IMG/VR virus record: IMGVR_UViG_3300045988_147113
From: a virus
DNA length: 58,419 nucleotides
Reading direction: 5' to 3' (one strand)
Below are positions 1 through 58,241 of this stretch, one piece after another. Position numbers and translations under genes: made by a program. Below the pieces are notes generated by a model. The model saw nothing but the letters and a program-made list of their open reading frames with translations, was not told the DNA's origin and searched no databases. Positions within the stretch are counted from its first letter, which is position 1; each line of letters starts with the position of its first letter.

Positions 1-119
1 ATTTTTTTTTTCACCGGAATAGGAAGTATGTCACAGAAATATTACACACAGAAAAATACTCTTAAAACCCCAAAAACGTTGAAATTCCAACGTTTTCAGG
101 CCCTAAAAGACGTTTTCAA
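1..119. repeat. Terminal direct repeat, copy 1 (identical to 58301..58419)
   Basis: The first 119 nt recur exactly as the last 119 nt, giving a unit length of 58300 bp. This is either the assembly overlap of a circular or permuted genome, or a true DTR. Confidence 0.9.
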
Positions 120-120
120 A

Positions 121-301
121 TGTGTAACGTTTGTGTGACAAAACCGATTTGTGTGTAACGTTTGTGTGACAAAACCGATTTTGGCGTTTTTACCGCATTA
201 AGGGCATTTTCGCTCGTGTCACACAAACGTTACACACAAATCGATTTTGTCACACAAACGTTACACATTTAGAACTGCTTTTGTCACACAAACGTTACAC
301 A
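121..301. repeat. Dyad-symmetric array of the 19-nt motif TGTGTAACGTTTGTGTGAC (iteron, operator or promoter-like)
   Basis: Forward copies at 121..149 and 152..180 (29-nt units, 31-bp period). Reverse-complement copies at 218..236, 249..267 and 283..301. The array lies in the only large intergenic region between the last and first genes. Confidence 0.85.
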
Positions 302-315
302 TTTAGAAGTGCTTT

Positions 316-924
316 TTAATACCATTCACTCCCTCTAAAACTGGCGTTTGAGGGGTCGTACCGCGTAAAAGACATCTTTCCGACGTTCACGCAAGTCATC
401 GCAAAACAGTCCGGACACCAGACCAAATGATACTGTTCGTCACCGCTACTCAACGGGAACCACTGCTTCGCCAAAGCCTTACGCTTCTTGAACCAGATAT
501 AATTCCTGGTGTTCTCCTCTCTGACATGGAACGCGATATCCTTCGATCGAACCGCAGAAGACATCATCAAACGACGATGCCCGCAAACACGACCATGTCT
601 ATCCATACGAGCAGGAAGCTCATCCATCGCACGACGAATCACTACTCCGCGTGATGGCGACACCGCAGAAAACCATCCATTGGTCTCGATCCATCCAGAT
701 CCATGTCTCTTACAGCGAGGACAATAGGCATTGATCTTTGTCTCGGTCATATCATATGATATTTCGGGATGTGCAAGATCCGTCTGCAACAGCAGAATAT
801 CACTCATGATGATCTCATGTCTCGGCAATAGATCATCGCATGACCCACGATGATTCACTAATCTCGTAATGGTGTTCTGTACATCGCTCATGGGGTTGAT
901 CAGTTCGAATTCGTTAATACGCAT
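316..924 (-). CDS. Hypothetical protein, possible Zn-ribbon
   Basis: 202-aa ORF with CPRC and CPDC pairs. It is the last gene of the unidirectional array. No family recognised. Confidence 0.6.
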   Translation of the reverse strand: MRINEFELINPMSDVQNTITRLVNHRGSCDDLLPRHEIIMSDILLLQTDLAHPEISYDMTETKINAYCPRCKRHGSGWIETNGWFSAVSPSRGVVIRRAMDELPARMDRHGRVCGHRRLMMSSAVRSKDIAFHVREENTRNYIWFKKRKALAKQWFPLSSGDEQYHLVWCPDCFAMTCVNVGKMSFTRYDPSNASFRGSEWY

Positions 925-4101: not shown

Positions 4102-4587
4102 TCATACGTCTTCGAAGTGGAAGCCGCATAATGTCTGTTGTTTCCTATATCCGTTCAGTATCTGCGAGATCTTGGTCTGGACTGTATGAGGATCCTTATC
4201 GGTGTAGCCATGCTTGATGAGATATTGCGACGTCTCCATGATGGTAGGAAACACCAGATTGAGCTCCACGATACGATTCGGACGATGACGTCCGTGACGC
4301 GCATCGCTGTCGGGATCGCTTTGTTCGCCAAGCCAGGCTATGACCGTACGGTTGCCGTTGAGAATCGCCTCGACGGCAAATAACAGGTCGGGATGCTTGA
4401 TACGGGCATATTCGCGCAGCCACACGTCGTAGTAGCGCGAATATGCCTCCCAGGTGCGCGGCGTGTCGGGATTGATGGACTCCAGCTGTCCCACGGTCTC
4501 GCGACGGATCTTCATCATCTTGCCGACTTGATGCTGCGTGAGTCCAAGCAGGCACCGTGCGCTGCGATATTCGTCAGGCGTTGGCAT
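4102..4587 (-). CDS. HTH (XRE-like) DNA-binding protein with a NUMOD/IENR-like C-terminal module
   Basis: The N-terminus (ARCLLGLTQHQVGKMMKIRRETVGQLE) is a typical XRE HTH. The C-terminus (F.T..E...YL......I...LNGYRK...GFHFE) resembles the DNA-binding tail of the HNH endonuclease at 9677..10144. Confidence 0.65.
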   Translation of the reverse strand: MPTPDEYRSARCLLGLTQHQVGKMMKIRRETVGQLESINPDTPRTWEAYSRYYDVWLREYARIKHPDLLFAVEAILNGNRTVIAWLGEQSDPDSDARHGRHRPNRIVELNLVFPTIMETSQYLIKHGYTDKDPHTVQTKISQILNGYRKQQTLCGFHFEDV

Positions 4588-5140
4588 GGGCCGGTTCCTT
4601 CGGATAGATCAGTCCAAGAGATCCGAGCTGGTCGAATTCTTGGATCACTTGCTTATCGAATTGCGACATATATGTGTCTTTGAGGATGTATCCTTTCAGA
4701 GCTCGTACGGTGAGGCCTCGTCCGATCGCCATATTGAATAGGTTGATGGTGAAGGTTCCATCACTATAGGATTGAGGATACGTCCATGCAAGATCGGCAT
4801 CCGATGCCTCTATAGGTAAATATCCTCGTCTGTTGACCTCATTGACGAACATATAGATCTTATCAGCATCGAGTTCCCACACATCATTTGGTGCGGTTTT
4901 GGGAAAATGATACATGCTGCATTCGACTCTGCGCTTTGTACCGCAGAACGGGCACCAGCTCGTGCATACATACATGCGGCCTTTGTTGGCAACGGCCATC
5001 GGCTTGGTCATAGCCAAAGGCGTATCGCATTGACATTCTCGCATCTTTTCGACAGCGAGAGACATGCCATTATATATCACGATCGGTGCGAACGATGTGC
5101 TGGACAGGGTTATGAACGGCGAAAAAGTCGTGTCGGACAT
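4574..5140 (-). CDS. Hypothetical protein
   Basis: 188-aa ORF with cysteine pairs (CQC, CPFC). Confidence 0.65.
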   Translation of the reverse strand: MSDTTFSPFITLSSTSFAPIVIYNGMSLAVEKMRECQCDTPLAMTKPMAVANKGRMYVCTSWCPFCGTKRRVECSMYHFPKTAPNDVWELDADKIYMFVNEVNRRGYLPIEASDADLAWTYPQSYSDGTFTINLFNMAIGRGLTVRALKGYILKDTYMSQFDKQVIQEFDQLGSLGLIYPKEPAHANA

Positions 5141-5164
5141 GATTACTCCTTGTGTATAGATATA

Positions 5165-5458
5165 TTAATCGTATTTGGTTTCCAATGCCATCGGACGTTC
5201 GGAATTCTCAACCGGACGTTCCTTCTGGCAAACATGCTCCAGGATCCATCGAATCTGTGATGGATCATTGAAATATGGCGCCAGCTCATACCAGAGAAAT
5301 ACATCGCCACTGCCGGTGATGAAGCTCACCCCATGCGGTCCAGCGGATTTGTATTCGAAGACGCTGTTGGCAAGTTCAGGCAAGACATATTCGAATATGT
5401 CTTTGGCGTGTTTGTCATAGACGTCCGAATCAGGCGTTTCAGGTTCATAATTCGCCAC
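5165..5458 (-). CDS. Hypothetical protein
   Basis: 97-aa acidic ORF. Confidence 0.6.
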   Translation of the reverse strand: MANYEPETPDSDVYDKHAKDIFEYVLPELANSVFEYKSAGPHGVSFITGSGDVFLWYELAPYFNDPSQIRWILEHVCQKERPVENSERPMALETKYD

Positions 5459-5657
5459 TGAAGTTCGCCCCCTTCGTCCACAGATACCATTGGTCGAATT
5501 CCACGGTGAATATCACATATTCGGTCGAGTCGTCGACTTCGTATTGATCGTCCTCGTAGAATTTTCTGGTCGCCTTGTTGATGACCAGTTTTAATGAGTG
5601 ATCATCGAAATCCTCAGCCGATTCGACGTTAGATACATCGTCGGGGAATATCAGCAT
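5445..5657 (-). CDS. Hypothetical small acidic protein (trimmed start)
   Basis: ATG at 5657 is preceded by GGGAG. The ORF-track start (5831) would overlap the upstream gene by 119 nt. Confidence 0.45.
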   Translation of the reverse strand: MLIFPDDVSNVESAEDFDDHSLKLVINKATRKFYEDDQYEVDDSTEYVIFTVEFDQWYLWTKGANFSGEL

Positions 5658-5712
5658 GAAGATCTCCCAGAGACGATCGAAGTTGCTCGGCAGATAGGAG
5701 ACATGACAAGCC

Positions 5713-6114
5713 CTAGCAATACTTTTCCGAGATGTCTCGGCCACCCATGCTGTTGCCACTGGCTCGCTGCGACTTGGCAGGTTCCGGGTGTTGCTTGCTA
5801 TCATGGAGTTCCTCCTGATCCTTGATGTCAATGAAACCGCTGGCGTTGCAATCGACGCACTCCATCCAGATATGGATTACCGGATTGCCATGAGCATCTT
5901 CGATTTCCTCCATACGATCCGCATCCAAATATACGATCGGATACTTATATGGTTCAATATAATCATCGGTTAGGACGACATGTTTTCCTTTCACGAGATC
6001 GACAAAGCCGTTGTAACGCTCTGCGATTTGATCAGACGCCTTGCAGACATTGGCATGTTGTCTCGATACCTGATCAACAAGCTTTTTGATATCAAGAGTG
6101 CCAAAATTAATCAT
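5713..6114 (-). CDS. Hypothetical protein
   Basis: ATG at 6114 with AAAGGTG 5 nt upstream. The track start at 6129 is a TTG codon. Confidence 0.6.
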   Translation of the reverse strand: MINFGTLDIKKLVDQVSRQHANVCKASDQIAERYNGFVDLVKGKHVVLTDDYIEPYKYPIVYLDADRMEEIEDAHGNPVIHIWMECVDCNASGFIDIKDQEELHDSKQHPEPAKSQRASGNSMGGRDISEKYC

Positions 6115-6124
6115 AATTACACCT

Positions 6125-6171
6125 TTCAAAAATAAAGGACAGGTACAGGCCGATGACGGCCCATACCTGTC
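6125..6171 (-). terminator. Rho-independent terminator
   Basis: The GACAGGTA...TACCTGTC stem (6138..6171) has an inner GGCCG/CGGCC stem. On the minus strand it is followed by CCTTTATTTTT. Confidence 0.7.
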
Positions 6172-6182
6172 GAAATGTCATG

Positions 6183-6305
6183 TCAGCGGTATCCGCCGGA
6201 CAATGTCTTGACGAACCACCAGAAGAAATATAATCCTCCGGTGAGGATGGAATAGATGCAGACCTTCAGGACGCCAGGTCTTGGGGTTCGATTATCGTAT
6301 GACAT
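6183..6305 (-). CDS. 40-aa hydrophobic mini-protein
   Basis: MSYDNRTPRPGVLKVCIYSILTGGLYFFWWFVKTLSGGYR. Its ATG overlaps the upstream stop (TGATG). A terminator follows. Confidence 0.45.
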   Translation of the reverse strand: MSYDNRTPRPGVLKVCIYSILTGGLYFFWWFVKTLSGGYR

Positions 6306-6832
6306 CAATCCTTCTCCACCTTGTGGAACGTCATGGTGTTCATGGCGGAATCCGGTTCGTCGAAGAATCGAGCTTCATAATCTGATTCCTGAACCGTCAC
6401 CAGCAGCTTCTGCAAATATGCAGTGGTGAACTGATCGTAATGGTTCAGATTGAAGCTTAGCCACGATTCAGTCACGGCGTCGGCGGACACCAGCGGATCG
6501 AGCATCTTGACGGAATCCTCATCCAGCTGGGCGTTGCCATGCGAATTCTTCATCCAGATCTCCGGAGGATTGTAAGACTTGAAGTTGATCTTCACCTGAA
6601 GTGTGTAGATGCCAGGCTCCGTTTCGTCACGGCCCTCATGGAACTTGACGTTCAGGCCAAGGTCCTGAAGCACCTTGGCGTCAGATTCCTCGAGAACGAT
6701 GTTGAAGTTGCGATTGCCGGCCGGATTGTACTTGCCTTCGCGGCCTGCGAAATTCGTCCAGATCAGACGAACGTTCTCGCATTCGATCTTGTTGACGTCA
6801 CCGTTCGGGCGCTTGATGATGTTGATAGGCAT
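6305..6832 (-). CDS. Putative ssDNA-binding protein (gp2.5/DUF2815-like)
   Basis: 175 aa. The N-terminal VRLIWTNFAGREGKYNPAGNRNFNIVL beta-rich region and the acidic C-terminal tail (FFDEPD) fit phage SSBs. It lies in the replication module. The call is tentative. Confidence 0.4.
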   Translation of the reverse strand: MPINIIKRPNGDVNKIECENVRLIWTNFAGREGKYNPAGNRNFNIVLEESDAKVLQDLGLNVKFHEGRDETEPGIYTLQVKINFKSYNPPEIWMKNSHGNAQLDEDSVKMLDPLVSADAVTESWLSFNLNHYDQFTTAYLQKLLVTVQESDYEARFFDEPDSAMNTMTFHKVEKD

Positions 6833-7217: not shown

Positions 7218-7604
7218 CTAATTTGGATTAACGGTTTTCGTTTCGATTATGTGGCCTTTGCCATCATTCATCTTGACACAGAGATCGTCGATAAATAGTT
7301 TGGCATCCTTAACGATCGTTGATGCTATATTATTAAAATCGTCTATGATCTTCTGCCAACGTTCAACGATGAAATTGTTGTAGAACTTCTGTTTGACGGG
7401 ATCATGCAGATCATTATAAATGTCTGGATAAAGACCTTCAAACTCTTCGTTCCACGAATCAATTTGTTCGTTGAATCGTTTGGCTTGGAAAATATAGCCG
7501 AGCTTGTATAATATCAACAACATTTTGGTGTCAAATGAATCATTATCGATGATATCTCCAGTTTCGATGTCGATGATGACAGGCTTGACATAAATATCGG
7601 TCAT
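7218..7604 (-). CDS. Hypothetical protein
   Basis: 128-aa ORF preceded by motif copy 2. Confidence 0.65.
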   Translation of the reverse strand: MTDIYVKPVIIDIETGDIIDNDSFDTKMLLILYKLGYIFQAKRFNEQIDSWNEEFEGLYPDIYNDLHDPVKQKFYNNFIVERWQKIIDDFNNIASTIVKDAKLFIDDLCVKMNDGKGHIIETKTVNPN

Positions 7605-8591: not shown

Positions 8592-9680
8592 TTATCGAGT
8601 CAAGGAAGCAACCAGATCATTGCTTCCAGGATTCGGCGAAATATAGGGTTCGCCGTTTACCAGCCAGTCGAAATCGCCATACTGCGAAATATCATCTCGT
8701 GCCTCATCGGCGAGATGTTCGTAGTAGGTGTAATCGACTTCGTCTTGTTTGTGACTGTCTCGGAGAACGCTCGATTCCTTCCATCGATAGCCCTTGGTAC
8801 CGGACAGCGCGGCGTAACCGCCGTTGCCGTTGTCGCGAACCAACAGACCTCCACCGCAACCCGGTTGGACCGGACTGAAGGCGCTTACCTTTCCGACGAA
8901 ATCATAGCGATGCTCGTCCTCGGGCAGACCTTCGTTGAAGTCTAGGTAGATCGATGTCGTGGCGGATTTGGTTTCGCAAAGATCCTTGAAATCAATCGTT
9001 TCATGAGAGAACAGCGTCTTGAAGACATATGGTACGGCGAACTGTGCACCCGTTGCCGCCCAACCACCATGCGATGCGGCGTCGTGCCCGTCGTCGCCGT
9101 AACAATGATGGGCGATGTACGTCGCTTTGTTGACGATACACATCTTGTCGTAGATCGCTTCGAGTTCGAAATTGTACCCATATTTTTTACCAAAGTCCAT
9201 AACAAATTGCACGATATACTGGTCGGCATCAGCAATTTTAATGGAGTCGGTTTTTACATGTACAGATACATACCCGAGTTCCATGACTTTTTGCTTAAGC
9301 AAAAGCATAAACAAAGCACCACGTTTAGCGACCATGTTTTCAATATTTCGGTCGTTTGATCTATTTTCAACATCGTTGAATTTCGTTGGAAAATGAGCCG
9401 AAGTCAATCCATAAGTCGAATTGATGACGATCTTCAACGCTTGAGCTAACGACTTGGTGTTTTCGCCTTCTTTAAGAAGCGGAGCTAATGCGCCATCCAT
9501 GCATTTTCGGGCTTTTTCAATTTGACCATGTTTAATGAAAATACGAGCTTTCTTAATATCGCTATACTTTTTAGTATAAGGGCCGAAGAAGTTCATATTC
9601 TCAATGCTTGAAGGATGTAGAGATGACACATCCAACAACGCAACATTGCCAAACATTCCTCCGAGTTTCTGACCGCTCAT
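8592..9680 (-). CDS. Family B DNA polymerase, C-terminal (palm/thumb) fragment
   Basis: Motif A is LLDVSSLHPSS (DxxSLYPS-like), motif B is KIVINSTYG and motif C is VHVKTDSI. Its ATG overlaps the HNH gene stop (ATGA). Confidence 0.8.
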   Translation of the reverse strand: MSGQKLGGMFGNVALLDVSSLHPSSIENMNFFGPYTKKYSDIKKARIFIKHGQIEKARKCMDGALAPLLKEGENTKSLAQALKIVINSTYGLTSAHFPTKFNDVENRSNDRNIENMVAKRGALFMLLLKQKVMELGYVSVHVKTDSIKIADADQYIVQFVMDFGKKYGYNFELEAIYDKMCIVNKATYIAHHCYGDDGHDAASHGGWAATGAQFAVPYVFKTLFSHETIDFKDLCETKSATTSIYLDFNEGLPEDEHRYDFVGKVSAFSPVQPGCGGGLLVRDNGNGGYAALSGTKGYRWKESSVLRDSHKQDEVDYTYYEHLADEARDDISQYGDFDWLVNGEPYISPNPGSNDLVASLTR

Positions 9681-10144
9681 GATTTCTCCACTCGTCGAAT
9701 CGTGAATCCTTTATGTTTTTTGACTTTACCAAGTACAGCCTTCGAAATGTTCGATTTTGTACTATGTAAAGCTTTTGCGCATTCAATTTGGCTATCGAAT
9801 TGTTCTCCAGTTTCAATGATCTCAACCGGATAATGATGACCAGGATGAAGCCCTTCCAAATAAGCATGTTTTAGATTCCTAGAATGAGTAGTCCATTCTA
9901 GGTTATCAACAGCATTATTGGCTTTATCTCCGTCAATATGATTGACTTCGTTCCCCGAATGTTTCGGAATCCAAGTTTCAGCGACCAATCTATGAACGAA
10001 TCCGGCTGAAGTTTGTTGATATCCAGAATCATTAATAAATATTGGAAGCTCTCGGCAATGGCTTTGTCGACAACTCACAATTCGTCCTTTATTGGACACC
10101 AAAATTCTTTGATCTTTCAGCCATTGCCTCCAAAGTTCATCCAT
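9677..10144 (-). CDS. HNH homing endonuclease (NUMOD4-HNH-IENR/NUMOD-like) splitting the polB gene
   Basis: The NHIDGDKANNAVDNLEWTTHSRN HNH core is present. The N-terminal W...LVSNKGRIVS is NUMOD4-like. The gene fills the whole gap between the polymerase fragments. Confidence 0.8.
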   Translation of the reverse strand: MDELWRQWLKDQRILVSNKGRIVSCRQSHCRELPIFINDSGYQQTSAGFVHRLVAETWIPKHSGNEVNHIDGDKANNAVDNLEWTTHSRNLKHAYLEGLHPGHHYPVEIIETGEQFDSQIECAKALHSTKSNISKAVLGKVKKHKGFTIRRVEKS

Positions 10145-10147
10145 GAT

Positions 10148-13123: not shown

Positions 13124-13135
13124 ACCCACTCCTTT

Positions 13136-19619: not shown

Positions 19620-20081
19620 TTACATATATTCATATTCGGCATTCCCCAACGACCATCGTTCTGCTCCCCACACACGAAATATCCATCGAGTCATGCCGTT
19701 TTCGACAAAGAACAGCGATACACCTTGCGATGATCGTATAATGGCTTGTCTGAAATCGCAGTCGAGCAGCCATGGCGCTATCTGCTCGAGAAAACAAGTA
19801 AATTCATTCTTCGGAGTATGGATATCAAAATCCGCATCGACAATTGTCATATTCGTGGCGTTTCTCACCGCTTCGGTTTGGATGCAGACAGCGCCGTGGT
19901 CATCCACGTACACCCAGAATGATACGCCATTCGGTCGAACATACTGATACCAGCCGCTGATGGCGTTGTGTGGCACTTGATACGACCTATCCATGATCTT
20001 GGGAAAGAGTTCCGATGCCACCTTCTCATTGTGCAACTGCTCGCGTAAATTCGGTGGTTGATGCTTCAATGAAATTAACAT
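19620..20081 (-). CDS. Hypothetical protein
   Basis: 153-aa ORF. Confidence 0.6.
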   Translation of the reverse strand: MLISLKHQPPNLREQLHNEKVASELFPKIMDRSYQVPHNAISGWYQYVRPNGVSFWVYVDDHGAVCIQTEAVRNATNMTIVDADFDIHTPKNEFTCFLEQIAPWLLDCDFRQAIIRSSQGVSLFFVENGMTRWIFRVWGAERWSLGNAEYEYM

Positions 20082-22227: not shown

Positions 22228-22259
22228 TGTTGTCATTAAAGGCGATGATTCATGCGCGA
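22228..22259 (-). promoter_or_regulatory. Conserved upstream motif, copy 7
   Basis: Minus strand reads TCGCGCATGAATCATCGCCTTTAATGACAACA. Confidence 0.55.
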
Positions 22260-22381
22260 AAAAAAATATAAACGCCATGTCCTGTCTCAGTGGTGGTACG
22301 TGACGTTACAGCTATACTCAACATATCGGATAAATGAGAAGCCGTGTGATTAACGGCTTGTCATTATTAGGATTGATCAAG

Positions 22382-22486
22382 CTAGAACAATCCGCAGACG
22401 ATGAGGACAATCGCAATAACGAATATAGCGATAATGGCGATTGCGCCCCAGACGACGGTCTTGAAAATAGTCTTGATGAGGTCCAT
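22382..22486 (-). CDS. 34-aa hydrophobic mini-protein
   Basis: MDLIKTIFKTVVWGAIAIIAIFVIAIVLIVCGLF, with an AAGGAG RBS and motif copy 8 upstream. Confidence 0.45.
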   Translation of the reverse strand: MDLIKTIFKTVVWGAIAIIAIFVIAIVLIVCGLF

Positions 22487-22508
22487 AATAACTCCTTTGG
22501 TTGATATA

Positions 22509-22542
22509 TAGCTTCTCATTAAGGACCATGATTAATTCGCGA
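22509..22542 (-). promoter_or_regulatory. Conserved upstream motif, copy 8
   Basis: Minus strand reads TCGCGAATTAATCATGGTCCTTAATGAGAAGCTA. Confidence 0.55.
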
Positions 22543-22653
22543 ATACATCATCAAGCTCCTTGCCCAAAAATATAAACCATACGCATCATCGGACAAGAAG
22601 CAAAGCAGATGGCTTTGCTTCTATTGATCATTCCTGATTAGAGGAAATGGTGT

Positions 22654-22740
22654 TCAGTGTTCTTGCGTCAAAGCGACCGCATAGTACTCTCCAGCGAGAG
22701 CAGCGATTGCGATGGCAATGGCGGAAATTCCAGCGAACAT
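22654..22740 (-). CDS. 28-aa hydrophobic mini-protein
   Basis: MFAGISAIAIAIAALAGEYYAVALTQEH, with an AAAGGAG RBS and motif copy 9 upstream. Confidence 0.4.
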   Translation of the reverse strand: MFAGISAIAIAIAALAGEYYAVALTQEH

Positions 22741-22763
22741 AGTTTTCTCCTTTAATGATGGTA

Positions 22764-22796
22764 TGGTTCTCATTAAAGGACATGTTTCATTCGCGA
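22764..22796 (-). promoter_or_regulatory. Conserved upstream motif, copy 9
   Basis: Minus strand reads TCGCGAATGAAACATGTCCTTTAATGAGAACCA. A perfect 10-bp stem forms between 22749..22758 and 22770..22779 and includes the SD. Confidence 0.6.
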
Positions 22797-22807
22797 CTGC
22801 AAATATA

Positions 22808-22837
22808 AAGCCAAAGCCGCATGTGCGACTCTGGCTT
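22808..22837 (-). terminator. Conserved terminator hairpin
   Basis: AAGCCAAAGCCGCATGTGCGACTCTGGCTT, followed on the minus strand by TATATTT. Confidence 0.7.
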
Positions 22838-22842
22838 GATGA

Positions 22843-23097
22843 TCATTCATCAATATACATTTTTTCAGCGATCTTTTTTGCGATTTGATCTCGACGTCCG
22901 TGTCCCCACGTAGTGATGGTTATACACAAGGTTGGATGATCGTAAAATGGATACGTTACTATGGCATGGTTATAGCTCTTTACGTATGGTAAAGAGCCGA
23001 CCACGTTAAGAATCGTGTTCACTTGATCTTGGTCCTTGCAATAGCCATCGGCAGTGAAAGACTCGGTTCGGTTCAAAATCTTGTCGATGATAAGCAT
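22843..23097 (-). CDS. Hypothetical protein
   Basis: 84 aa from the ATG at 23097 (AAAGGAG RBS). Confidence 0.55.
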   Translation of the reverse strand: MLIIDKILNRTESFTADGYCKDQDQVNTILNVVGSLPYVKSYNHAIVTYPFYDHPTLCITITTWGHGRRDQIAKKIAEKMYIDE

Positions 23098-23120
23098 GAT
23101 TACTCCTTTGATATTGTTGA

Positions 23121-23153
23121 ATTTCTTCAATAAAGGACATGTATCATGCGCGA
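23121..23153 (-). promoter_or_regulatory. Conserved upstream motif, copy 10
   Basis: Minus strand reads TCGCGCATGATACATGTCCTTTATTGAAGAAAT. Confidence 0.5.
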
Positions 23154-23161
23154 AAAAAAAT

Positions 23162-23193
23162 AAAGAGCAAGCCGCACATGCGGCTTGCTCTTT
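23162..23193 (-). terminator. Terminator hairpin
   Basis: AAAGAGCAAGCCGCACATGCGGCTTGCTCTTT is a perfect palindromic stem with a T-run on the minus strand. Confidence 0.7.
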
Positions 23194-23403
23194 TCAGACG
23201 AGAGTGATGGTCTTCAGATAATCTGCGAATGCACTCATGTCTTCCAGGTTGGTACTGACCATGATCACCCGAAGCTTCTTTGTCTTGGTCGTAAGAATAC
23301 CGCTCTCCGTTTCCGGATCGCAGTGGTTCTTGATCCACTGAACAAGCTTCAGGCAGGTGTGCTGGCTGTACTGTTGGCTGACATAAGTAAACGTATCGTT
23401 CAT
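23194..23403 (-). CDS. Hypothetical protein
   Basis: 69 aa from the ATG at 23403 (AAGGAG RBS). Confidence 0.55.
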   Translation of the reverse strand: MNDTFTYVSQQYSQHTCLKLVQWIKNHCDPETESGILTTKTKKLRVIMVSTNLEDMSAFADYLKTITLV

Positions 23404-23424
23404 GATTGCTCCTTTATGATAGAT

Positions 23425-23457
23425 TCTCTTGTCATTAAAGGCCATGTACGATTCGCG
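23425..23457 (-). promoter_or_regulatory. Conserved upstream motif, copy 11
   Basis: Minus strand reads CGCGAATCGTACATGGCCTTTAATGACAAGAGA. Confidence 0.55.
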
Positions 23458-23469
23458 TCGAGACAAAAT

Positions 23470-23502
23470 ATAAGAGCCCATGCGCGCGGCATAGGCTCTT
23501 AT
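23470..23502 (-). terminator. Terminator hairpin (ATAAGAGCCCATGCG....GCATAGGCTCTTAT family)
   Basis: Near-identical to the hairpin at 23847..23879. Confidence 0.65.
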
Positions 23503-24567: not shown

Positions 24568-25235
24568 TATATCGGAGGCTCCTGGGAGGCGTATGCTCCC
24601 GGAAGGACGCTGGTGGGTGTGGATGAGAAACATCCACTTAACAGTACTGGCGGAAGCGAGACACATAGTCATAATCCAGGCACTCTTAGTGCACAGGTCT
24701 CGCTTGACGGACAGAACACCGTCGTACGACGTGTCAGGATCCCTGACTTTGTCGGCGATGTTCGACATATTGGCGATATCTATGGCGGTTCATTCAACGC
24801 AACCTGGGGAGCTGCCATCGTCGGACATTCTGACCCCGCGAGCTCGATGGAACCGTATGTCGCCGTTTGTTATTGGCGTAGAATCGCTTAAGCAACACGG
24901 CACCAATAGCATACTGAAATGTAAGGCGGTTCGATTGGCAAAATACCAGCAACCTTGGTTCCGACATGCGTTGATTGGTACTTCCAGTTAATTGGAGCGC
25001 GCATGTCGGCCGATAAACCAGTTCTTACGCTGGCTGATGCATGATAACCACGATTCCATTCAACTTGGATGTTTCCATTTCCATCAATGTGCAGCGCCGT
25101 TGCTAGATCGGTATCTTTTCCGACATCAACGGTTTTCGCACCGCCCTGCTTGTTGAGGGTGAAGTCAGTATCCGTTGCGGACACACCCACCAGCGTCCTT
25201 CCGGGAGCATACGCCTCCCAGGAGCCTCCGATATA
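24568..25235. mobile_element. Invertible DNA segment 1 (intragenic inverton in a tail-fibre tip gene)
   Basis: A perfect 54-bp inverted repeat: 24568..24621 is the reverse complement of 25182..25235. The repeat flanks 560 bp that hold two convergent alternative 3' gene ends. Confidence 0.8.
24622..24891 (+). other. Silent alternative C-terminal cassette for gene 24888..25349
   Basis: It has no own start or RBS. The frame continues the IR-encoded YIGGSWEAYAPGRTLVGV into DEKHPLNSTGGSETHSHNPG...SSMEPYVAVCYWRRIA, a tail-collar-like ending. Confidence 0.75.
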
Positions 25236-25349
25236 GGACGCCGGCGAAGTGTTGGTGGATGTCGCCAGAATCGTGCCGACCGGCCAAAACGTATTACGAA
25301 TCTTCGCAATAAGATGTTGTACGCCTGCCTGATCCAAATATGCAACCAT
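24888..25349 (-). CDS. Tail-fibre tip / receptor-binding protein C (tail-collar-like), current orientation
   Basis: 153 aa from MVAYLDQAGVQHL (ATG at 25349). It ends PPYISVCYWCRVA. The N-terminus is paralogous to gene 25692..26137. Confidence 0.7.
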   Translation of the reverse strand: MVAYLDQAGVQHLIAKIRNTFWPVGTILATSTNTSPASYIGGSWEAYAPGRTLVGVSATDTDFTLNKQGGAKTVDVGKDTDLATALHIDGNGNIQVEWNRGYHASASVRTGLSADMRAPINWKYQSTHVGTKVAGILPIEPPYISVCYWCRVA

Positions 25350-25374
25350 TGTAGGTCTTGCCTTTCCGTGAGGA

Positions 25375-25946
25375 GTCGGCAAAACCGGCGGAGAGAAGAC
25401 GCATAAACATACGTACGGCATTGTGTTCGGTACTAGTTATGGAATGTGTGTATTGACAGACGATCGACCTTCACCACATATTGGTCTCATCGATTATTCT
25501 CTGACCGTTGGCAATCGTATTCGGCGACACGGCATTCCAACTATCAGTACAATCACGAACAGCTTTGCGGATACGGTCTATGGATCATTTGGTGAAAATA
25601 AACAGCTGGCACTTCGAATGAATGAAGCACACACCACGACAAACTCATCAATGGAGCCATATATCGCCGTCTATGTTTGGAGGCGCACCGCTTAAGCCGT
25701 CCTTCGCCAAATATAAACCGCGATATATGGCTGCAAGTTGTTATGCGGTTTGTCGTTTCCGATAGCAATCGTAACTGCGCCAATCCAGTGGGAATCAGCC
25801 CCAGGGGTTGCTAATGTAGCTAAGCGAACACCGTAATCGTGGTCAACGTCCCTAAACAAAGCAGCGCTCGTTCCTGGAGCATGCGAATGTTTTGCTAATT
25901 CATCAATAGTTAGTTTATGCGTCTTCTCTCCGCCGGTTTTGCCGAC
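25375..25946. mobile_element. Invertible DNA segment 2 (intragenic inverton in the second tail-fibre tip gene)
   Basis: A perfect 34-bp inverted repeat: 25375..25408 is the reverse complement of 25913..25946. The repeat encodes VGKTGGEKTHK in frame on both arms and flanks 504 bp with two convergent 3' ends. Confidence 0.8.
25409..25695 (+). other. Silent alternative C-terminal cassette for gene 25692..26137
   Basis: The frame opens after the TGA at 25369..25371 and reads GVGKTGGEKTHK-HTYGIVFGTSYG...SSMEPYIAVYVWRRTA. No RBS or start context. Confidence 0.75.
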
Positions 25947-26137
25947 GGTGAAGTCTGTATCGGTGTCCGATGCAGAGACCATTACTCGTCCCTGCGCATA
26001 GCGTTCCCAGGTGCCACCGAATAAACTCGCCGGGGACGTGCTGTCAGTGCTGAAATAGAGAGATCCAACGGGCTGGATCCGGTCAAGAACCTTCCTGACT
26101 AGATACCGAGCCCCCCCTCGTCAAGATAAGCTACCAT
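25692..26137 (-). CDS. Tail-fibre tip / receptor-binding protein B (tail-collar-like), interrupted by a frameshift at a G7 run
   Basis: The ATG at 26137 follows AGGAGG. It reads MVAYLDEGG and then stops at 26099..26101. The -1 frame continues ARYLVRKVLDRIQPVGSLYF...GGEKTHKLTIDELAKHSHAPG...NLQPYIAVYIWRRTA and is collinear with gene C. Confidence 0.65.
26111..26117 (-). other. Homopolymeric G7 (C7 on the plus strand) slippery or phase-variable tract
   Basis: It reads G GGG GGG in the zero frame. An eighth G, or a -1 slip, restores the full-length fibre-tip ORF. Confidence 0.8.
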
Positions 26138-26161
26138 GATATCATACCTCCTAAAACATCA

Positions 26162-49285: not shown

Positions 49286-49858
49286 TCATTTCACTCTGAC
49301 GGTAACATCTTGTTCGAGATGTTCGTCATTGACATCATAACTAAAATACAACGTGTATACGTTGTTGGCGATCATCGGTTGGATCTTTGCTTTCAACACC
49401 GTATAATCGCTTCGAATCGCTTGCACTTCGCAATCGCCCGAAGCCTCAATAGTATCACCATTCGTGAGAGACCACAGTGCATTGGTGACCTCAAACGGAT
49501 GATGATCGGTACTGTTGATGGCGATGGATACCCTACGATCTTCTCCGCATAAAAACGTTTCCGATTCAAGCATACGATGACTCCTTCCGGCATCGGCGAA
49601 CGGCAGGCCGTCTCGCATCAAACGTATGACATACGGATACAAGACAAGCCGGCACTTGGTTTTAGCGTTGCCGATATACTGGATTTTCACGAATCCATCG
49701 AAATGGCCTCTGGCTCCTCGATCGTTCTCGGCCCACAACTCCATATGCAGCAGATTCGGGGACCAATCGCAATACCCATACCAGTAATCCGGCTTGTCTT
49801 TTAGGGGTCGCAACGGTATTTCGACACCGTCGACTTCTCCCCATACCCGTATGATCAT
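49286..49858 (-). CDS. Hypothetical protein
   Basis: 190-aa ORF. Confidence 0.55.
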   Translation of the reverse strand: MIIRVWGEVDGVEIPLRPLKDKPDYWYGYCDWSPNLLHMELWAENDRGARGHFDGFVKIQYIGNAKTKCRLVLYPYVIRLMRDGLPFADAGRSHRMLESETFLCGEDRRVSIAINSTDHHPFEVTNALWSLTNGDTIEASGDCEVQAIRSDYTVLKAKIQPMIANNVYTLYFSYDVNDEHLEQDVTVRVK

Positions 49859-52984: not shown

Positions 52985-53212
52985 CGACAACGAATGATAA
53001 CAATCAGCATCGATGAACGATGTGATTCATATAGGCAAATGCTATTCGTTGCTCATATGAATCACATCATTCATCATTGTTGCTGTTGTTATTCATGCAT
53101 GTCGACAACGAATGATAACAATCAGCATCGATGAACGATGTGATTCATATAGGCAAATGCTATTCGTTGCTCATATGAATCACATCATTCATCATTGTTG
53201 CTGTTGTTATTC
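52985..53212. repeat. Two perfect 110-bp tandem repeats, each a long imperfect hairpin
   Basis: 52985..53094 is identical to 53103..53212 (118-bp period, ATGCATGT spacer). Within each unit, GATGAACGATGTGATTCATAT pairs with ATATGAATCACATCATTCATC. Confidence 0.9.
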
Positions 53213-56333: not shown

Positions 56334-56927
56334 CTAGAAGATCAATTTATTAGCTTTCGCTTCGGCGCGAAGTTCACGAATCATCTTATCATCATGAACG
56401 ATAAGATTCATAACATCCTTGATGGTTTCCGGATCAGTAAACTCTTCAATGCGAACTTCATCATTCTGATAGAGTCGGCATTCAAAATTGATATCATCTG
56501 GTTTGATGTTGTACTCGAGACAGAACAGAGCGCAATACACATGCAGCTGTCCGAACTCGAGCACATCCTTCTGACCGGTCTTGAGATCAAATACTCGAAG
56601 AAGTTTCTTCTTGGGATCGAATCCGATAAGATCGGCAGTCCCGAAACAATACTCGCTGTAATAGAGCACCACTTCCGGACTCATGTTGTATCCGAGACCA
56701 TCATTGATGAACTCGTTGATGGTCTCATGGTTGCGCGGCATCTTCCGACCCATCCTATTCGCAAACTCGGCGAAGGCGTGAAGCTGTGTGCCACGTTCTT
56801 TCATGAGATTGGAATAGAAGATATCCTTGAAGTGCTCATCGTCGTAGTTGAGCCAGACATGATGACTGGCACTCAAATATGCATGCTTACCTTGAAGGTC
56901 AGTGTGCTGATTGAACGTGAATGTCAT
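56334..56927 (-). CDS. PD-(D/E)XK nuclease (RecB/Cas4-like exonuclease fold)
   Basis: 197 aa from the ATG at 56927. GTADLIGFDPKKKLLRVFDLKTGQ fits the D...(D/E).K motif. Confidence 0.5.
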   Translation of the reverse strand: MTFTFNQHTDLQGKHAYLSASHHVWLNYDDEHFKDIFYSNLMKERGTQLHAFAEFANRMGRKMPRNHETINEFINDGLGYNMSPEVVLYYSEYCFGTADLIGFDPKKKLLRVFDLKTGQKDVLEFGQLHVYCALFCLEYNIKPDDINFECRLYQNDEVRIEEFTDPETIKDVMNLIVHDDKMIRELRAEAKANKLIF

Positions 56928-56958
56928 GATGACCCCTAAAATGAAAAGCCGTGATTCC

Positions 56959-57258
56959 CTAGGCTTTGGATAGATATCGCTTGACTTGGTCCACCACATC
57001 GTCTTCATTCGAAGGATCGACAAACGAAGCAAAACCGCCATCGTCGTTGATCTTCTGAACGAAGTGATCCTGATTTGGTCGATGGGATGCGGTGGCTGAG
57101 CGTTTGACTTCCAGCGAAGCAAATCGGCCATGTGCGAGGATCAAGAGATCCGGGATGCCTTGCACTTGGTTCGCATCGGCTTTCATGACAATGGATCCTG
57201 GAATCTCGGTCCTCAATCGCTTGACCAGTTTACGCTGGAAGTCTCGCTCTAAAACCAT
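56959..57258 (-). CDS. VRR-NUC domain nuclease
   Basis: 99 aa. GIPDLLILAHGRFASLEVKR is the VRR-NUC PD...(E)VK core. Confidence 0.65.
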   Translation of the reverse strand: MVLERDFQRKLVKRLRTEIPGSIVMKADANQVQGIPDLLILAHGRFASLEVKRSATASHRPNQDHFVQKINDDGGFASFVDPSNEDDVVDQVKRYLSKA

Positions 57259-57368: not shown

Positions 57369-57734
57369 CTAGATGTATTCAGCAACGAAGTTATCCGACC
57401 ATATGCCCCTTCCACACAACAGATCTCGCAACGAAGAAAGACTAAAGCCTTTCTTGATGCTTGCTTCGTAAATGTTCGGAAATACTTCCGAAGTGCCATA
57501 TCGAAGCGTGGTGATCTTAATCGGATGATCCTGGTACTTCCGAACTGGATGTAACGGTACCACATGCATCCATCCGATCTTGATGATCTCATCGCCGTTA
57601 TGCTCGACGAGTTCGCACTTGGCGTCCTCCAGCTGCATTCCGGCATAGTAACTATAGTCGTCGATGTCCTGGCAGATATGATCGTCTTCCATGACTCGCA
57701 TGGACTGTTCGAATATTGGTTCGCGAAAACGCAT
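57369..57734 (-). CDS. Hypothetical early protein
   Basis: 121 aa from the ATG at 57734 (AGGAGG RBS). Confidence 0.55.
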   Translation of the reverse strand: MRFREPIFEQSMRVMEDDHICQDIDDYSYYAGMQLEDAKCELVEHNGDEIIKIGWMHVVPLHPVRKYQDHPIKITTLRYGTSEVFPNIYEASIKKGFSLSSLRDLLCGRGIWSDNFVAEYI

Positions 57735-57742
57735 GGTTCCTC

Positions 57743-58207
57743 CTAATACACTCGATGGGCATCGGTAATGTACACATGTACAAGATGCCGGCACTTCACG
57801 CAATAGACGATATGCAACAACAAGCGAACACCATTCAAATCGATTTGACTCGGAGCATCATCTCGAATAACTGGTGCGGTCACTTCCCAGCTCTCTCGGT
57901 TATGGTTGCAATTAATCCCCTCTGTCGACATTTGCTGTGCGATCTGTCGAATGGCGTCGGCATCGACGTGAGGGATCTTATCGAGCGGCACCATGAGTTT
58001 GGTTCGCTTGCGACATCCAGAACAATAACACGCCAGGACGAAATCGTTCATGGAAAAATTACGGCGTTCCTGAGGTGTGAGTTCATCTGGATCGATCTTC
58101 GGGATACTGATGCATACCGGAGTCCCTGGTTGACATCTACACCCAATCATGTCGTGGGCGATTTCGTAAATGGTTTCTCGATTACCATCGAGGATGAAAT
58201 AAGTCAT
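57743..58207 (-). CDS. Hypothetical Cys-rich early protein
   Basis: 154 aa from the ATG at 58207 (AAAGGAA RBS). It has several CxxC pairs. It is the first gene after the repeat array. Confidence 0.55.
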   Translation of the reverse strand: MTYFILDGNRETIYEIAHDMIGCRCQPGTPVCISIPKIDPDELTPQERRNFSMNDFVLACYCSGCRKRTKLMVPLDKIPHVDADAIRQIAQQMSTEGINCNHNRESWEVTAPVIRDDAPSQIDLNGVRLLLHIVYCVKCRHLVHVYITDAHRVY

Positions 58208-58241
58208 GACGGTTCCTTTCTGCAAAAAAGTGGTTTTCAAA

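What the first reader, a model, noticed from the sequence alone, without database searches (positions are those of the whole stretch)
25375..25946. Inverton 2: a second, independent invertible cassette pair in the adjacent paralogous fibre-tip gene
The sequence 25375..25408 is the exact reverse complement of 25913..25946 (34 bp). It encodes VGKTGGEKTHK in frame on both arms.

- **Minus strand.** This arm continues into 73 aa (LTIDELAKHSHAPG...NLQPYIAVYIWRRTA), the current 3' end of gene 25692..26137.
- **Plus strand.** This arm continues into a promoterless 95-aa alternative (HTYGIVFGTSYG...SSMEPYIAVYVWRRTA).
- **Differences from inverton 1.** The crossover point sits at a different position in the protein than in inverton 1. 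The left arm lies in the 5' leader of the downstream gene 24888..25349.

Two tandem invertons would give four tip combinations from about 1.4 kb of DNA.
Basis: seen in the sequence. Interest (0 to 1): 0.88.

Follow-up and report, generated by a model that had tools for sequence, protein, structure and literature searches.

The report
Flippable tail-protein cassette without a recombinase
A 572-bp DNA segment in a gut phage flips between two exact 34-bp inverted repeats and swaps the outer half of a small baseplate or receptor-binding protein; this is a classic phage trick, but the complete genome encodes no recognisable recombinase to do it.

Summary
Positions 25375-25408 and 25913-25946 are exact 34-nt inverted repeats, with 0 expected by chance.

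The inverton reading is strongly supported by other assemblies:
- A 98.7%-identical genome (L004) carries this segment, and separately inverton 1, inverted with breakpoints inside the repeats.
- Five recurrent cassette pairs occur in both orientations across about 49 related gut-phage loci.
- L023 and L132 differ by a flip of inverton 2 alone.
- Silent cassettes are intact in about 36 of 37 loci.
- Silent cassettes are under the same purifying selection as expressed ones (dN/dS 0.2-0.5).
- Both fusions give full-length Pfam Gp10_C domains, and the alternative 170-aa fusion exists as a real protein at 96% identity.

One correction is needed. In this window gene 2 is out of frame at a G7 tract (26111-26117), while most relatives have an in-frame G8. 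This looks like a second, ON/OFF phase-variable layer.

The window is a complete 58.3-kb genome, and I found no serine or tyrosine recombinase in it. The two repeat pairs share no motif, lack dyad symmetry and evolve in concert. The phage encodes an exonuclease and a single-strand annealing protein. I favour homology-driven flipping (about 45%) over a host invertase acting in trans (about 30%).

Verdict: a new variant of a known kind.

The parts
25375..25408 (.). IR2 left arm (34 nt). It sits in the leader of gene 1 and reads VGKTGGEKTHK on the + strand into the silent cassette.
   Evidence: The outer boundary GTCGGCAAA(A/G)CCGGCGG is fixed in 38 related loci.
25913..25946 (.). IR2 right arm (34 nt), inside gene 2. 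It joins the constant N-terminal part to the expressed cassette.
   Evidence: The inversion breakpoints in L004 lie within this arm.
25409..25912 (.). Invertible segment 2 (504 nt). It holds two convergent C-terminal cassettes placed tail to tail.
   Evidence: Inverted in L004. Homologous segments are inverted between L013/L017 and L020/L023 and between L023/L132.
25692..25912 (-). Currently joined cassette (type G): 73 aa, LTIDELAKHSH...NLQPYIAVYIWRRTA, plus stop.
   Evidence: Constant part + this cassette scores 94.9 bits against Gp10_C.
25409..25695 (+). Silent cassette (type A): 95 aa, HTYGIVFGTSYG...MEPYIAVYVWRRTA, plus stop. No start signal of its own; TGA at 25369-25371 closes the frame upstream of the arm.
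   Evidence: The fusion exists as P0001 (170 aa, 96% identity) and is encoded in L004. dN/dS of silent copies is 0.30.
25652..25735 (.). Tail-to-tail junction of the two cassettes. It is an imperfect 42-nt palindrome that folds as a long RNA hairpin in either orientation.
   Evidence: I3, 79% complementary.: -44.1 kcal/mol, z = -5.65.
25947..26137 (-). Constant N-terminal part of gene 2, from the ATG at 26137 (MVAYLDEGG...DTDTDFT). An AGGAGG ribosome-binding site lies 9 nt upstream (26147-26152).
   Evidence: It aligns with T4 gp10 residues 446-500.
26111..26117 (-). Poly-G tract in codons 7-9 of gene 2. It has 7 G here (out of frame); 8 G is in frame.
   Evidence: Among related loci: G8 in 22, G7 in 6, G6 in 6, G9 in 1. 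All 8 interrupted tracts are in frame.
24888..25349 (-). Gene 1, a paralogous Gp10_C protein. Its 3' half lies in inverton 1.
   Evidence: 58.8 bits; alternative fusion 51.8 bits.
24568..25235 (.). Inverton 1. Its 54-nt exact arms are 24568-24621 and 25182-25235. The silent cassette reads from the left arm on the + strand to the stop at 24891.
   Evidence: Inverted in L004. Contigs L001/L003 and L140 end exactly at its arms.
6305..6832 (-). Predicted single-strand annealing protein. It is a candidate catalyst of homology-driven flipping; this role is inferred, not shown.
   Evidence: phrog_4787, E = 6.6e-34. Pfam Phage_ssDNA_bind, 1.3e-30.
56334..57131 (-). Predicted exonuclease, the possible partner of the annealing protein (inferred).
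   Evidence: phrog_3953, E = 2.5e-60.

Best explanation
What it is. This is a real, recurrently reversing DNA inversion switch. Gene 2 (ATG at 26137, minus strand) encodes a roughly 150-170-aa protein made of one T4-gp10-C-terminal-type domain. Codons 1-64 are fixed. Codons 65-75 are the right repeat arm. The rest is supplied by whichever of two convergent cassettes in segment 25409-25912 faces the arm.

How it switches. Recombination between the two identical 34-bp arms turns the segment round. The 73-aa LTIDELAKHSH cassette is then replaced by the 95-aa HTYGIVFG cassette. Both products are complete domains with the same N-terminal core and the same C-terminal strand (PYIAVY.WRRTA) but a different middle, which is presumably the ligand-facing part. 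The neighbouring paralogue has its own inverton with unrelated 54-bp arms, and the two flip separately. A hypermutable G tract near the start of gene 2 adds an ON/OFF layer; this window is in the OFF state (G7).

Shown versus inferred.
- Shown: the anatomy, the opposite orientations in near-identical genomes, independence from inverton 1, and selection on silent cassettes.
- Inferred: the role in host recognition, and the catalyst.

The catalyst. My preferred mechanism (about 45%) is recombination that depends on arm identity rather than on a dedicated invertase. It would be carried out by the phage's own exonuclease and single-strand annealing protein pair, or by host RecA. Gene conversion would keep the arms identical.
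For: - Exact repeat, not chance.
- L004, 98.7% identical in the flanks, has both segments inverted with breakpoints inside the arms, and the 227 bp between them is collinear at 100%.
- Five recurrent cassette pairs are found in both orientations among about 49 loci from independent gut metagenomes. L023 and L132 differ by a flip of inverton 2 only.
- All four constant + cassette fusions hit Gp10_C end to end. The alternative fusion is a catalogued 170-aa protein.
- Silent cassettes are intact in about 36 of 37 loci. Silent-silent dN/dS is 0.22-0.47 against 0.24-0.56 for expressed-expressed.
- Contigs end exactly at the inverton-1 arms, and one ends 30 nt into an inverton-2 arm (L137). This suggests mixed orientations within samples.
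- For the catalyst:
  - The window is a complete genome with a 119-bp terminal overlap.
  - No serine or tyrosine recombinase was found by phmmer (with positive controls), by Pfam or by PHROGs.
  - IR1 and IR2 share no motif beyond chance and have no dyad symmetry.
  - Arm variants co-vary perfectly. At IR2 position 10, A is found in both arms of 27 genomes and G in both arms of 11, with 0 genomes mixed. IR1 positions 4, 21 and 42 behave likewise, and position 39 nearly so (1 mixed genome). Such co-variation requires gene conversion.
  - The phage encodes an annealing protein and an exonuclease.
Against: - No read-level data were available, so switching within one population is inferred from contig breaks and cross-sample comparisons, not observed.
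- In this window gene 2 is frame-shifted (G7), so neither cassette would be translated from the annotated ATG without a length change or slippage.
- Against the homology-driven catalyst:
  - Some relatives keep only 17-18 nt of perfect identity, which is short for RecA.
  - Mu's Gin-dependent G segment also has perfect 34-bp repeats (my knowledge), so perfect arms do not exclude a site-specific enzyme.
  - About 20 of the small ORFs have no assignable function.
  - The annotations of the annealing protein and exonuclease are family names, not tested activities.
- The receptor-binding role is unproven. AlphaFold models were poor (pLDDT 45-54).
Confidence: 0.8

Rival explanations
1. The switch is real but is catalysed by one or more site-specific invertases supplied in trans by the bacterial host. 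These would act on core sites inside the 18-27-nt conserved part of the arms.
For: - No recombinase is encoded in the complete phage genome.
- The outer boundary and first 17-18 nt of IR2 are conserved in all 38 genomes.
- The conserved part is about 26-27 nt long, the size of classical crossover sites, and the left half carries CAAAACC, as in hix/gix half-sites (my reading).
- Mavrich et al. 2018 (PMC6109161) proposed a trans-acting invertase for a roughly 500-bp recombinase-less inversion in Bifidobacterium prophages. The closest cultured relative of this phage infects Bifidobacterium.
Against: - IR1 and IR2 share no motif above chance, and neither has dyad symmetry. Two different host enzymes, or a very tolerant one, would be needed.
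- Perfect co-variation of arm variants spread over 38 nt of IR1 is not produced by serine or tyrosine strand exchange, which makes only 2-8 bp of heteroduplex (established mechanism).
- A virulent phage would depend on a host enzyme during a short infection.
- The host, and therefore its invertases, is unidentified.
Confidence: 0.3
2. The switch is catalysed by an unrecognised phage-encoded recombinase among the ORFs of unknown function.
For: - Many ORFs have no Pfam or PHROG function, for example 316..924, 4574..5140, 5445..6129, 7218..7604, 19620..20081, 49286..49858 and 57369..58240.
- The architecture is confined to one clade of about 58-kb phages, as expected if a clade-specific gene were responsible.
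Against: - None of these ORFs shows catalytic motifs or profile similarity to any recombinase, transposase or nuclease family.
- No gene of unknown function is adjacent to the invertons apart from small membrane-type proteins.
- The problem of two unrelated repeats applies here as well.
Confidence: 0.1
3. This is not a programmed switch. The opposite orientations are rare evolutionary rearrangements, or products of recombination between co-infecting relatives, fixed in different lineages.
For: - All orientation differences seen here are between assemblies from different samples.
- The locus also shows non-programmed events: a deletion fusing the two segments in L084, loss of cassettes in L002 and L005 and a frame-shifted silent cassette in L004.
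Against: - Two precise inversions separate genomes that are 98.7% identical.
- Orientation is scattered across the clade for five cassette pairs.
- Silent cassettes are intact and under purifying selection equal to expressed ones, which requires frequent expression.
- Exact arms are maintained in 38 genomes.
- Assemblies break exactly at the arms.
Confidence: 0.07
4. The repeat is an assembly artefact, that is, a chimera of two strains joined at a shared 34-mer.
For: The window is a metagenome-type assembly. Related assemblies do break at these repeats.
Against: - The same architecture, at the same codon, is present in dozens of independent assemblies from ENA, Logan, JGI and IMG/VR, in both orientations and with different cassette pairs.
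- Both cassettes complete the same protein domain.
Confidence: 0.01

Closest known systems
G segment of phage Mu (Gin), C segment of P1 (Cin), and the Min multiple-inversion region of p15B
   Same: - An invertible segment bounded by short exact inverted repeats (34 bp in Mu, my knowledge).
- A constant 5' part of a tail gene lies outside the segment.
- Alternative 3' parts inside the segment are joined by inversion, presumably changing host range.
   Different: - No serine invertase gene is adjacent or anywhere in the complete genome.
- The segment is only 504 bp and carries no assembly-chaperone genes.
- The target is a single-domain Gp10_C protein, not a long fibre.
- Two separate invertons with unrelated repeats sit in tandem.
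- The arms lack the dyad half-site structure.
Rin shufflon, and the second recombinase-less inversion, of Bifidobacterium prophages (Mavrich et al. 2018, PMC6109161)
   Same: - Actinobacteriophage setting. The closest isolate to this phage infects Bifidobacterium.
- Variation of the C-terminal part of a tail protein.
- The second system is a roughly 500-bp inversion of a small gene plus the 3' end of its neighbour, with no flanking recombinase, for which an invertase in trans was proposed.
   Different: - Rin has its own tyrosine recombinase and 11-bp rix sites TTCCCTAACCC, which are absent here.
- The second system inverts at an 8-bp CAGGGTTA, which is not used here, and it lies in temperate prophages.
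- Here the arms are 18-68 bp exact, the phage has no integrase, and there are two invertons plus a poly-G tract.
Gene-altering programmed inversions and intragenic invertons in bacteria (Milman et al. 2023, PMC9881135; Chanin et al., bioRxiv 10.1101/2023.03.11.532203)
   Same: - Inverted repeats lie within a coding sequence and a promoterless partial copy.
- Inversion recodes the protein.
- Phage tail and tail-collar domains are known targets.
   Different: Those surveys scanned bacterial genomes, tail-fibre targets lying in prophages. Here the element sits in a free, apparently virulent phage genome without one.
Hypermutable poly-G tracts in Campylobacter phage receptor-binding genes (Sorensen et al. 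2021, cited in PMC12823448)
   Same: A G tract in a tail gene varies in length between otherwise similar genomes and switches the reading frame.
   Different: Here it is combined in the same gene with a cassette inversion. The phage lineage and host are different. Length variation is seen only between assemblies, not yet within a stock.
Recombinase-independent genome isomerisation between long inverted repeats (cyanophages A-1(L)/N-1 group, bioRxiv 10.64898/2026.02.14.705889; herpesvirus segments, chloroplast inverted repeats - the last two from my knowledge)
   Same: Both orientations coexist without a dedicated recombinase being identified, and the repeats evolve in concert.
   Different: - Those repeats are 400-700 bp or longer and flip about 30 kb with no recoding.
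- Here the repeats are 18-68 bp, lie inside genes and swap protein modules.

Membership tests
Serine-invertase tail-fibre inversion systems (Gin/Cin/Pin/Min) | An invertible segment bounded by inverted repeats, with a constant 5' gene part outside and alternative 3' parts inside | tested here: met
Serine-invertase tail-fibre inversion systems (Gin/Cin/Pin/Min) | A small serine recombinase gene next to the segment | tested here: not met
   No hit to Hin, Gin or gamma-delta resolvase seeds in the six-frame translation (the seeds found recombinases in other loci). No Resolvase domain in Pfam or PHROG scans. The genome is complete.
Serine-invertase tail-fibre inversion systems (Gin/Cin/Pin/Min) | 26-bp crossover sites made of two imperfect inverted 12-bp half-sites around a 2-bp core | tested here: not met
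   The 26-nt core of IR2 matches its own reverse complement at only 10 of 26 positions, and IR1 at 10 of 54. Only one half of IR2 carries a CAAAACC-like element.
Serine-invertase tail-fibre inversion systems (Gin/Cin/Pin/Min) | A Fis-dependent recombinational enhancer in cis | not testable with these tools
   There is no model for such enhancers, and the host is unknown.
Rin shufflon (Bifidobacterium prophages) | A tyrosine invertase (rin) flanking the variable cassettes | tested here: not met
   No XerD- or FimB-like ORF. No Phage_integrase domain.
Rin shufflon (Bifidobacterium prophages) | 11-bp rix sites TTCCCTAACCC upstream of each cassette | tested here: not met
   0 matches with up to 1 mismatch.
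Gene-altering programmed inversion (sense of Milman et al. 2023) | Inverted repeats shared by a full gene and a promoterless partial copy on the opposite strand | tested here: met
   A TGA closes the silent frame upstream of the arm.
Gene-altering programmed inversion (sense of Milman et al. 2023) | Both orientations coexisting within one population | tested here: inconclusive
   Both orientations are seen between near-identical genomes from different samples. Within a sample the only evidence is indirect: contigs ending at arms. No reads were available.
Pfam PF21939 Gp10_C (T4 baseplate gp10 C-terminal domain) | A profile match above the curated cut-off over the whole domain | tested here: met
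   Scores of 94.9 and 71.3 bits for the two gene-2 forms, and 58.8 and 51.8 bits for the two gene-1 forms (cut-off 27), over profile positions 2-139 of 139. T4 gp10 structure 2FKK at E = 5.5e-5.
Contingency locus (homopolymer phase variation) | Homopolymer length varies among close relatives and toggles the frame, while interrupted tracts stay in frame | tested here: met
   G8 in 22 loci, G7 in 6, G6 in 6, G9 in 1. All 8 interrupted tracts are in frame. Variation within a population was not tested.

The most novel reading that the evidence does not exclude
A clade of apparently virulent human-gut actinophage-like viruses diversifies two baseplate receptor-binding proteins by invertase-free flip-flop. 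Short (18-68 bp) exact intragenic inverted repeats, kept identical by gene conversion, are recombined by the phage's own exonuclease and annealing-protein module. A population-wide pool of at least 10 cassette types is dealt out two per gene, and a poly-G frameshift switch sits on top.
Probability: 0.35. Interest if true: 0.8.

Novelty: new variant of a known kind. Interest (0 to 1): 0.6.

Why it matters
Inversion switches of phage tail genes are textbook cases, but they are known as invertase-dependent systems, mostly in temperate phages and plasmids of Proteobacteria.

This example differs in several ways:
- It is very compact (about 0.57 kb) and lies inside a single protein domain.
- It is duplicated in tandem and combined with a homopolymer switch.
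- It is carried by a complete phage genome with no recognisable recombinase.
- It is conserved across dozens of human-gut assemblies, which share a pool of cassettes.

If homology alone drives the flipping, short intragenic inverted repeats in virulent phages would be a general and easily overlooked route to host-range bet-hedging. Searches that require a nearby invertase would miss them. If a host invertase drives the flipping, host range would be set by the previous host's enzymes.

There is also a practical consequence. These loci break metagenomic assemblies, and they cause gene callers to report truncated or frame-shifted tail genes.

Tried and rejected
- Annotated phages. A DNA search of the region against annotated phage records gave only a 60-nt hit.
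- Structure. AlphaFold2 models of both protein forms were too poor to use (pLDDT 45.5 and 53.7, low throughout the variable part), so no fold search was run.
- Host. The genome-collection scan returned only distant relatives (47% identity or less) in MAGs labelled Bacilli, Erysipelotrichaceae and Clostridia. None had invertons, and the only recombinases were prophage-type large serine recombinases unrelated to this clade. Nearest isolates point instead to Actinobacteria and Bifidobacterium. The host stays unresolved.
- Known sites. The Rin rix and CAGGGTTA sites were looked for and are absent or irrelevant.
- Shared core. A common core motif between IR1 and IR2 was looked for, and nothing was found beyond chance.
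- Rejected readings.
  - Diversity-generating retroelement: I saw no reverse transcriptase or template repeat.
  - Simple paralogue duplication: the arms are exact while the conserved cassette tails are only 74-79% identical.
  - Assembly chimera: see the rival explanations.
- Promoters. The consensus scan found no more promoter-like sites than shuffles in 23.8-27 kb. This is consistent with the silent cassette being promoterless but is not proof.
Full report
**1. The observation**

Positions 25375-25408 (GTCGGCAAAACCGGCGGAGAGAAGACGCATAAAC) are the exact reverse complement of 25913-25946, with 504 nt between them. Allowing 3 mismatches, these are the only two copies in the 58,419-nt window, and none is expected by chance.

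Both arms read VGKTGGEKTHK in frame:
- On the minus strand the reading continues for 73 aa to a stop at 25692.
- On the plus strand it continues for 95 aa to a stop at 25695.
- A TGA at 25369-25371 closes the plus-strand frame just upstream of the arm, so the plus-strand cassette has no start of its own.

A second exact pair, 54 nt at 24568-24621 and 25182-25235, bounds the neighbouring segment.

The interval 25692..26137 is 446 nt. The ATG at 26137, which has AGGAGG 9 nt upstream, is out of frame with the rest of the gene. The reason is that the G run in codons 7-9 (C run 26111-26117 on the + strand) has 7 G, and 8 G restores the frame.

**2. The proteins**

All genes of the window lie on the minus strand in a siphovirus-type tail module:
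- a 2,564-aa tape measure;
- Dit;
- a Sipho_Gp37-type protein;
- a protein with a carbohydrate-binding module;
- a 223-aa fibre-like protein;
- the two small genes;
- small membrane proteins.

Gene 1 and gene 2 are paralogues. All four constant + cassette combinations match Pfam PF21939 (Gp10_C, the C-terminal domain of T4 baseplate protein gp10) from end to end. The scores are 94.9 and 71.3 bits for gene 2 and 58.8 and 51.8 bits for gene 1, against a cut-off of 27.

Against solved structures, only the N-terminal core (residues 14-64) and the last strand (NLQPYIAVYIWRR) align with T4 gp10 (2FKK, E = 5.5e-5). The middle is variable. The repeat arm sits just after the conserved core. Inversion therefore keeps the core and exchanges the variable middle plus the conserved last strand.

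A receptor-binding role is inferred from this family and from the position in the tail module. It is not shown. AlphaFold models of the monomers were too poor to help.

**3. Does the segment flip?**

I searched the 5.8-billion-protein collection with the fusion predicted after inversion. It returned a 170-aa protein 96% identical over its full length (P0001, on a 58,010-nt contig) and dozens more at 78-86%.

The contig carrying P0001 (L004, ENA ERZ28599101) compares with the window as follows:

| L004 positions | Window positions | Orientation | Identity |
|---|---|---|---|
| flanks | flanks | collinear | 98.7% |
| 4193-4764 | 25375-25946 | opposite | 97% |
| 4731-4957 | 25408-25182 | collinear | 100% |
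| 4904-5572 | 24568-25235 | opposite | 95.5% |

The alignment blocks overlap by exactly the 34-nt and 54-nt arms, so both breakpoints lie inside the repeats. Two separate inversions separate two nearly identical genomes.

**4. The wider clade**

Protein-guided and pattern searches of IMG/VR, JGI/ENA metagenomes and Logan gave about 49 related loci from human-gut samples.
- The architecture is conserved. In 38 loci a repeat pair starts at the same codon, with the outer boundary GTCGGCAAA(A/G)CCGGCGG and 17-36 nt of perfect identity. In 14 of them inverton 1 is also complete, with 38-68 nt of identity.
- More distant Gp10_C genes in other phages and prophages have no such repeats.
- The cultured relative Bifidobacterium phage BitterVaud1 has the two tandem genes but only a 44-nt, 70% vestige of a convergent cassette.

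Typing the cassettes gave at least 10 families. Two of them (types E and H) occur in either inverton.

Five recurrent cassette pairs at inverton 2 occur in both orientations in different assemblies:

| Cassette pair | One orientation | Other orientation |
|---|---|---|
| {A,G} | window, L006, L133 | L004, L021, L114, L130 |
| {A,F} | 3 loci | 3 loci |
| {A,C} | 3 loci | 3 loci |
| {C,I} | 2 loci | 1 locus |
| {E,H} | 2 loci | 1 locus |

L023 and L132 carry the same four cassette types. They differ by inversion of inverton 2 alone: 593 nt are inverted while inverton 1 is collinear.

**5. Is it a switch or a fossil?**

- Silent cassettes are intact in about 36 of 37 loci.
- For cassette types A, C, F and G, dN/dS between two copies that are both silent is 0.22-0.47. 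This is the same as between two expressed copies, 0.24-0.56. A cassette can only be under such selection if it is regularly expressed, so orientation must change often relative to sequence divergence.
- Near-complete genomes L001/L003 and L140 end exactly at the two arms of inverton 1. L134 ends inside an IR1 arm, and L137 ends 30 nt into an IR2 arm. This is what assemblers do when both orientations are present in one sample. It is indirect evidence, because I could not examine reads.
- The locus also decays:
  - L002/L026 has a single cassette in the non-joined orientation, which leaves gene 2 truncated.
  - L005 has lost one cassette.
  - L004 has a frame-shifted silent cassette in inverton 1.
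  - L084 has a deletion joining the two segments.

**6. What catalyses the inversion?**

The window's first and last 119 nt are identical, so it is a complete circularly assembled genome of 58,300 bp.

I found no serine or tyrosine recombinase by three routes:
- phmmer with Hin, Gin, resolvase, XerD and FimB seeds against all six frames. The same seeds did find recombinases in unrelated loci.
- Pfam scans of about 40 ORFs.
- PHROG scans of about 40 ORFs.

No relative carries a recombinase within 4 kb of the invertons.

Further observations bear on the mechanism:
- The two repeat pairs share nothing beyond chance. The best 12-nt window matches at 9 of 12 positions, which 163 of 500 shuffles equal, and the longest shared exact run is 5 nt. 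Neither repeat has the dyad symmetry of a recombinase core site.
- The arms evolve in concert.
  - At IR2 position 10, A is found in both arms of 27 genomes and G in both arms of 11, with no genome mixed.
  - At IR1 positions 4, 21 and 42, variants are always the same in both arms; position 39 co-varies except in 1 mixed genome.
  - Reciprocal exchange at a fixed 2-8-bp core cannot copy a variant from one arm to the other. Gene conversion through longer heteroduplex can (established mechanism of the enzyme families).
- The phage encodes a predicted single-strand annealing protein (6305..6832, phrog_4787, 6.6e-34) and an exonuclease (56334..57131, phrog_3953, 2.5e-60). This is the kind of pair that recombines short homologies, by my knowledge of Red/RecET-type systems.

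I therefore rank the possible catalysts as follows:

| Catalyst | Probability |
|---|---|
| Homology-driven flipping | about 45% |
| Host invertase in trans | about 30% |
| Unrecognised phage enzyme | about 10% |

The host-invertase option is the one Mavrich et al. proposed for a recombinase-less inversion of about 500 bp in Bifidobacterium prophages.

Caveats:
- Arms of 17-18 nt in a few genomes are short for homologous recombination.
- Perfect 34-bp repeats also occur in Gin-dependent Mu.
- Occasional gene conversion could coexist with a site-specific enzyme.

**7. The poly-G layer**

Among 43 related loci the tract in codons 7-9 of gene 2 is distributed as follows:

| Tract | Loci | Frame |
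|---|---|---|
| G8 | 22 | in frame |
| G7 | 6 (including this window) | out of frame |
| G6 | 6 | out of frame |
| G9 | 1 | out of frame |
| interrupted by a substitution | 8 | all in frame |

Downstream of the tract the gene is otherwise intact in the out-of-frame genomes, apart from cassette truncations in L026 and L120. This is the signature of a hypermutable contingency tract, as described for Campylobacter phages (cited).

Homopolymer miscalls cannot be excluded without reads. Ribosomal or transcriptional slippage cannot be excluded either; a -1 slip on G7 would give exactly the G8 protein.

**8. Comparison and verdict**

Functionally this works like the Mu G, P1 C, p15B Min and Rin systems: a constant 5' part, alternative 3' parts, and a flip between inverted repeats. 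It is not a member of any of those families, because their defining recombinases and site types were tested and not found. It fits the general class of gene-altering programmed inversions.

The new points are:
- the intradomain position and small size;
- two independent tandem invertons with unrelated repeats;
- a shared cassette pool across a gut-phage clade;
- the added poly-G switch;
- the absence of any recognisable recombinase from a complete, integrase-less genome.

I rate it a new variant of a known kind, with interest 0.6.

Noticed in passing
window 26111-26117 (C run on +; G run in codons 7-9 of gene 2): The homopolymer length differs among relatives: G8 in 22 loci, G7 in 6 (including this window), G6 in 6, G9 in 1. 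All 8 interrupted tracts are in frame. This is probably an ON/OFF phase-variable tract. In this window gene 2 is OFF as assembled.
   Followed up: yes
window 24568-25235 (inverton 1): The 54-nt exact arms bound a segment that is inverted in L004. Near-complete genomes L001/L003 and L140 end exactly at its arms. Its cassette types E and H also occur in inverton 2 of other genomes, so cassettes move between the two loci.
   Followed up: partly
window 25652-25735: The two convergent cassettes end in similar sequences, which creates a 42-nt imperfect palindrome. It folds as a strong RNA hairpin (-44 kcal/mol, z = -5.65) just after the stop codon in either orientation. It could attenuate or stabilise the transcript that continues into gene 1.
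   Followed up: partly
window 53519-56320 (-): A 933-aa protein with a GADFDGD motif, several helix-turn-helix domains and a full-length match to phrog_4291 ('RNA-dependent RNA polymerase' type; weak Pfam RdRP hit). It is probably a phage single-subunit two-barrel RNA polymerase. It is conserved in Bifidobacterium, Streptomyces, Arthrobacter and Gordonia phages, where it is annotated only as an HTH protein.
   Followed up: partly
window 8592-13129 (-): The DNA polymerase and primase region appears split. A 155-aa HNH-type ORF (9677..10144) lies between a 993-aa ORF and a 362-aa ORF that looks like the polymerase C-terminal part. This may be a homing endonuclease insertion. It is read from the sequence only.
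   Followed up: no
window 22229-23471, and 6857, 7175, 18402, 21758, 22807, 23170: Five copies of a 44-nt intergenic element are spaced about 250-360 nt apart before small minus-strand ORFs. A recurrent GC-rich hairpin (AAAGCCAAAGCCGCATGTGCGACT type) occurs at six or more intergenic sites. These are possibly phage-specific promoters and terminators.
   Followed up: no
window 100-320 and 53005-53200: Clusters of direct and inverted copies of TGTGTAACGTTTGTGTGACAAAACCGA lie near the assembly ends, and a duplicated 78-nt palindromic unit lies at 53.0-53.2 kb. Both are iteron-like and may be origin or packaging regions.
   Followed up: no
window 1-119 and 58301-58419: An exact 119-bp terminal direct repeat, the overlap of a circular assembly. 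The unique genome is therefore 58,300 bp and complete.
   Followed up: yes
L084 2693-3430; L002 9665-9978 (same contig as L026); L005: Decay products of the locus. L084 has a deletion joining the interior of inverton 2 to the interior of inverton 1, which removes the constant part of gene 1. L002 has an inverton 2 with a single cassette in the non-joined orientation, so gene 2 ends 'GEKTHTL*'. L005 has the one-cassette form in the joined orientation.
   Followed up: partly
L138 3391-3496 (Bifidobacterium phage BitterVaud1, MT006236.1 at about 27.8 kb): The closest cultured relative has the two tandem Gp10_C genes but no exact repeats. Just after the second gene lies a 44-nt, 70% inverted copy of its own 3' end, which looks like the vestige of a lost convergent cassette.
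   Followed up: partly
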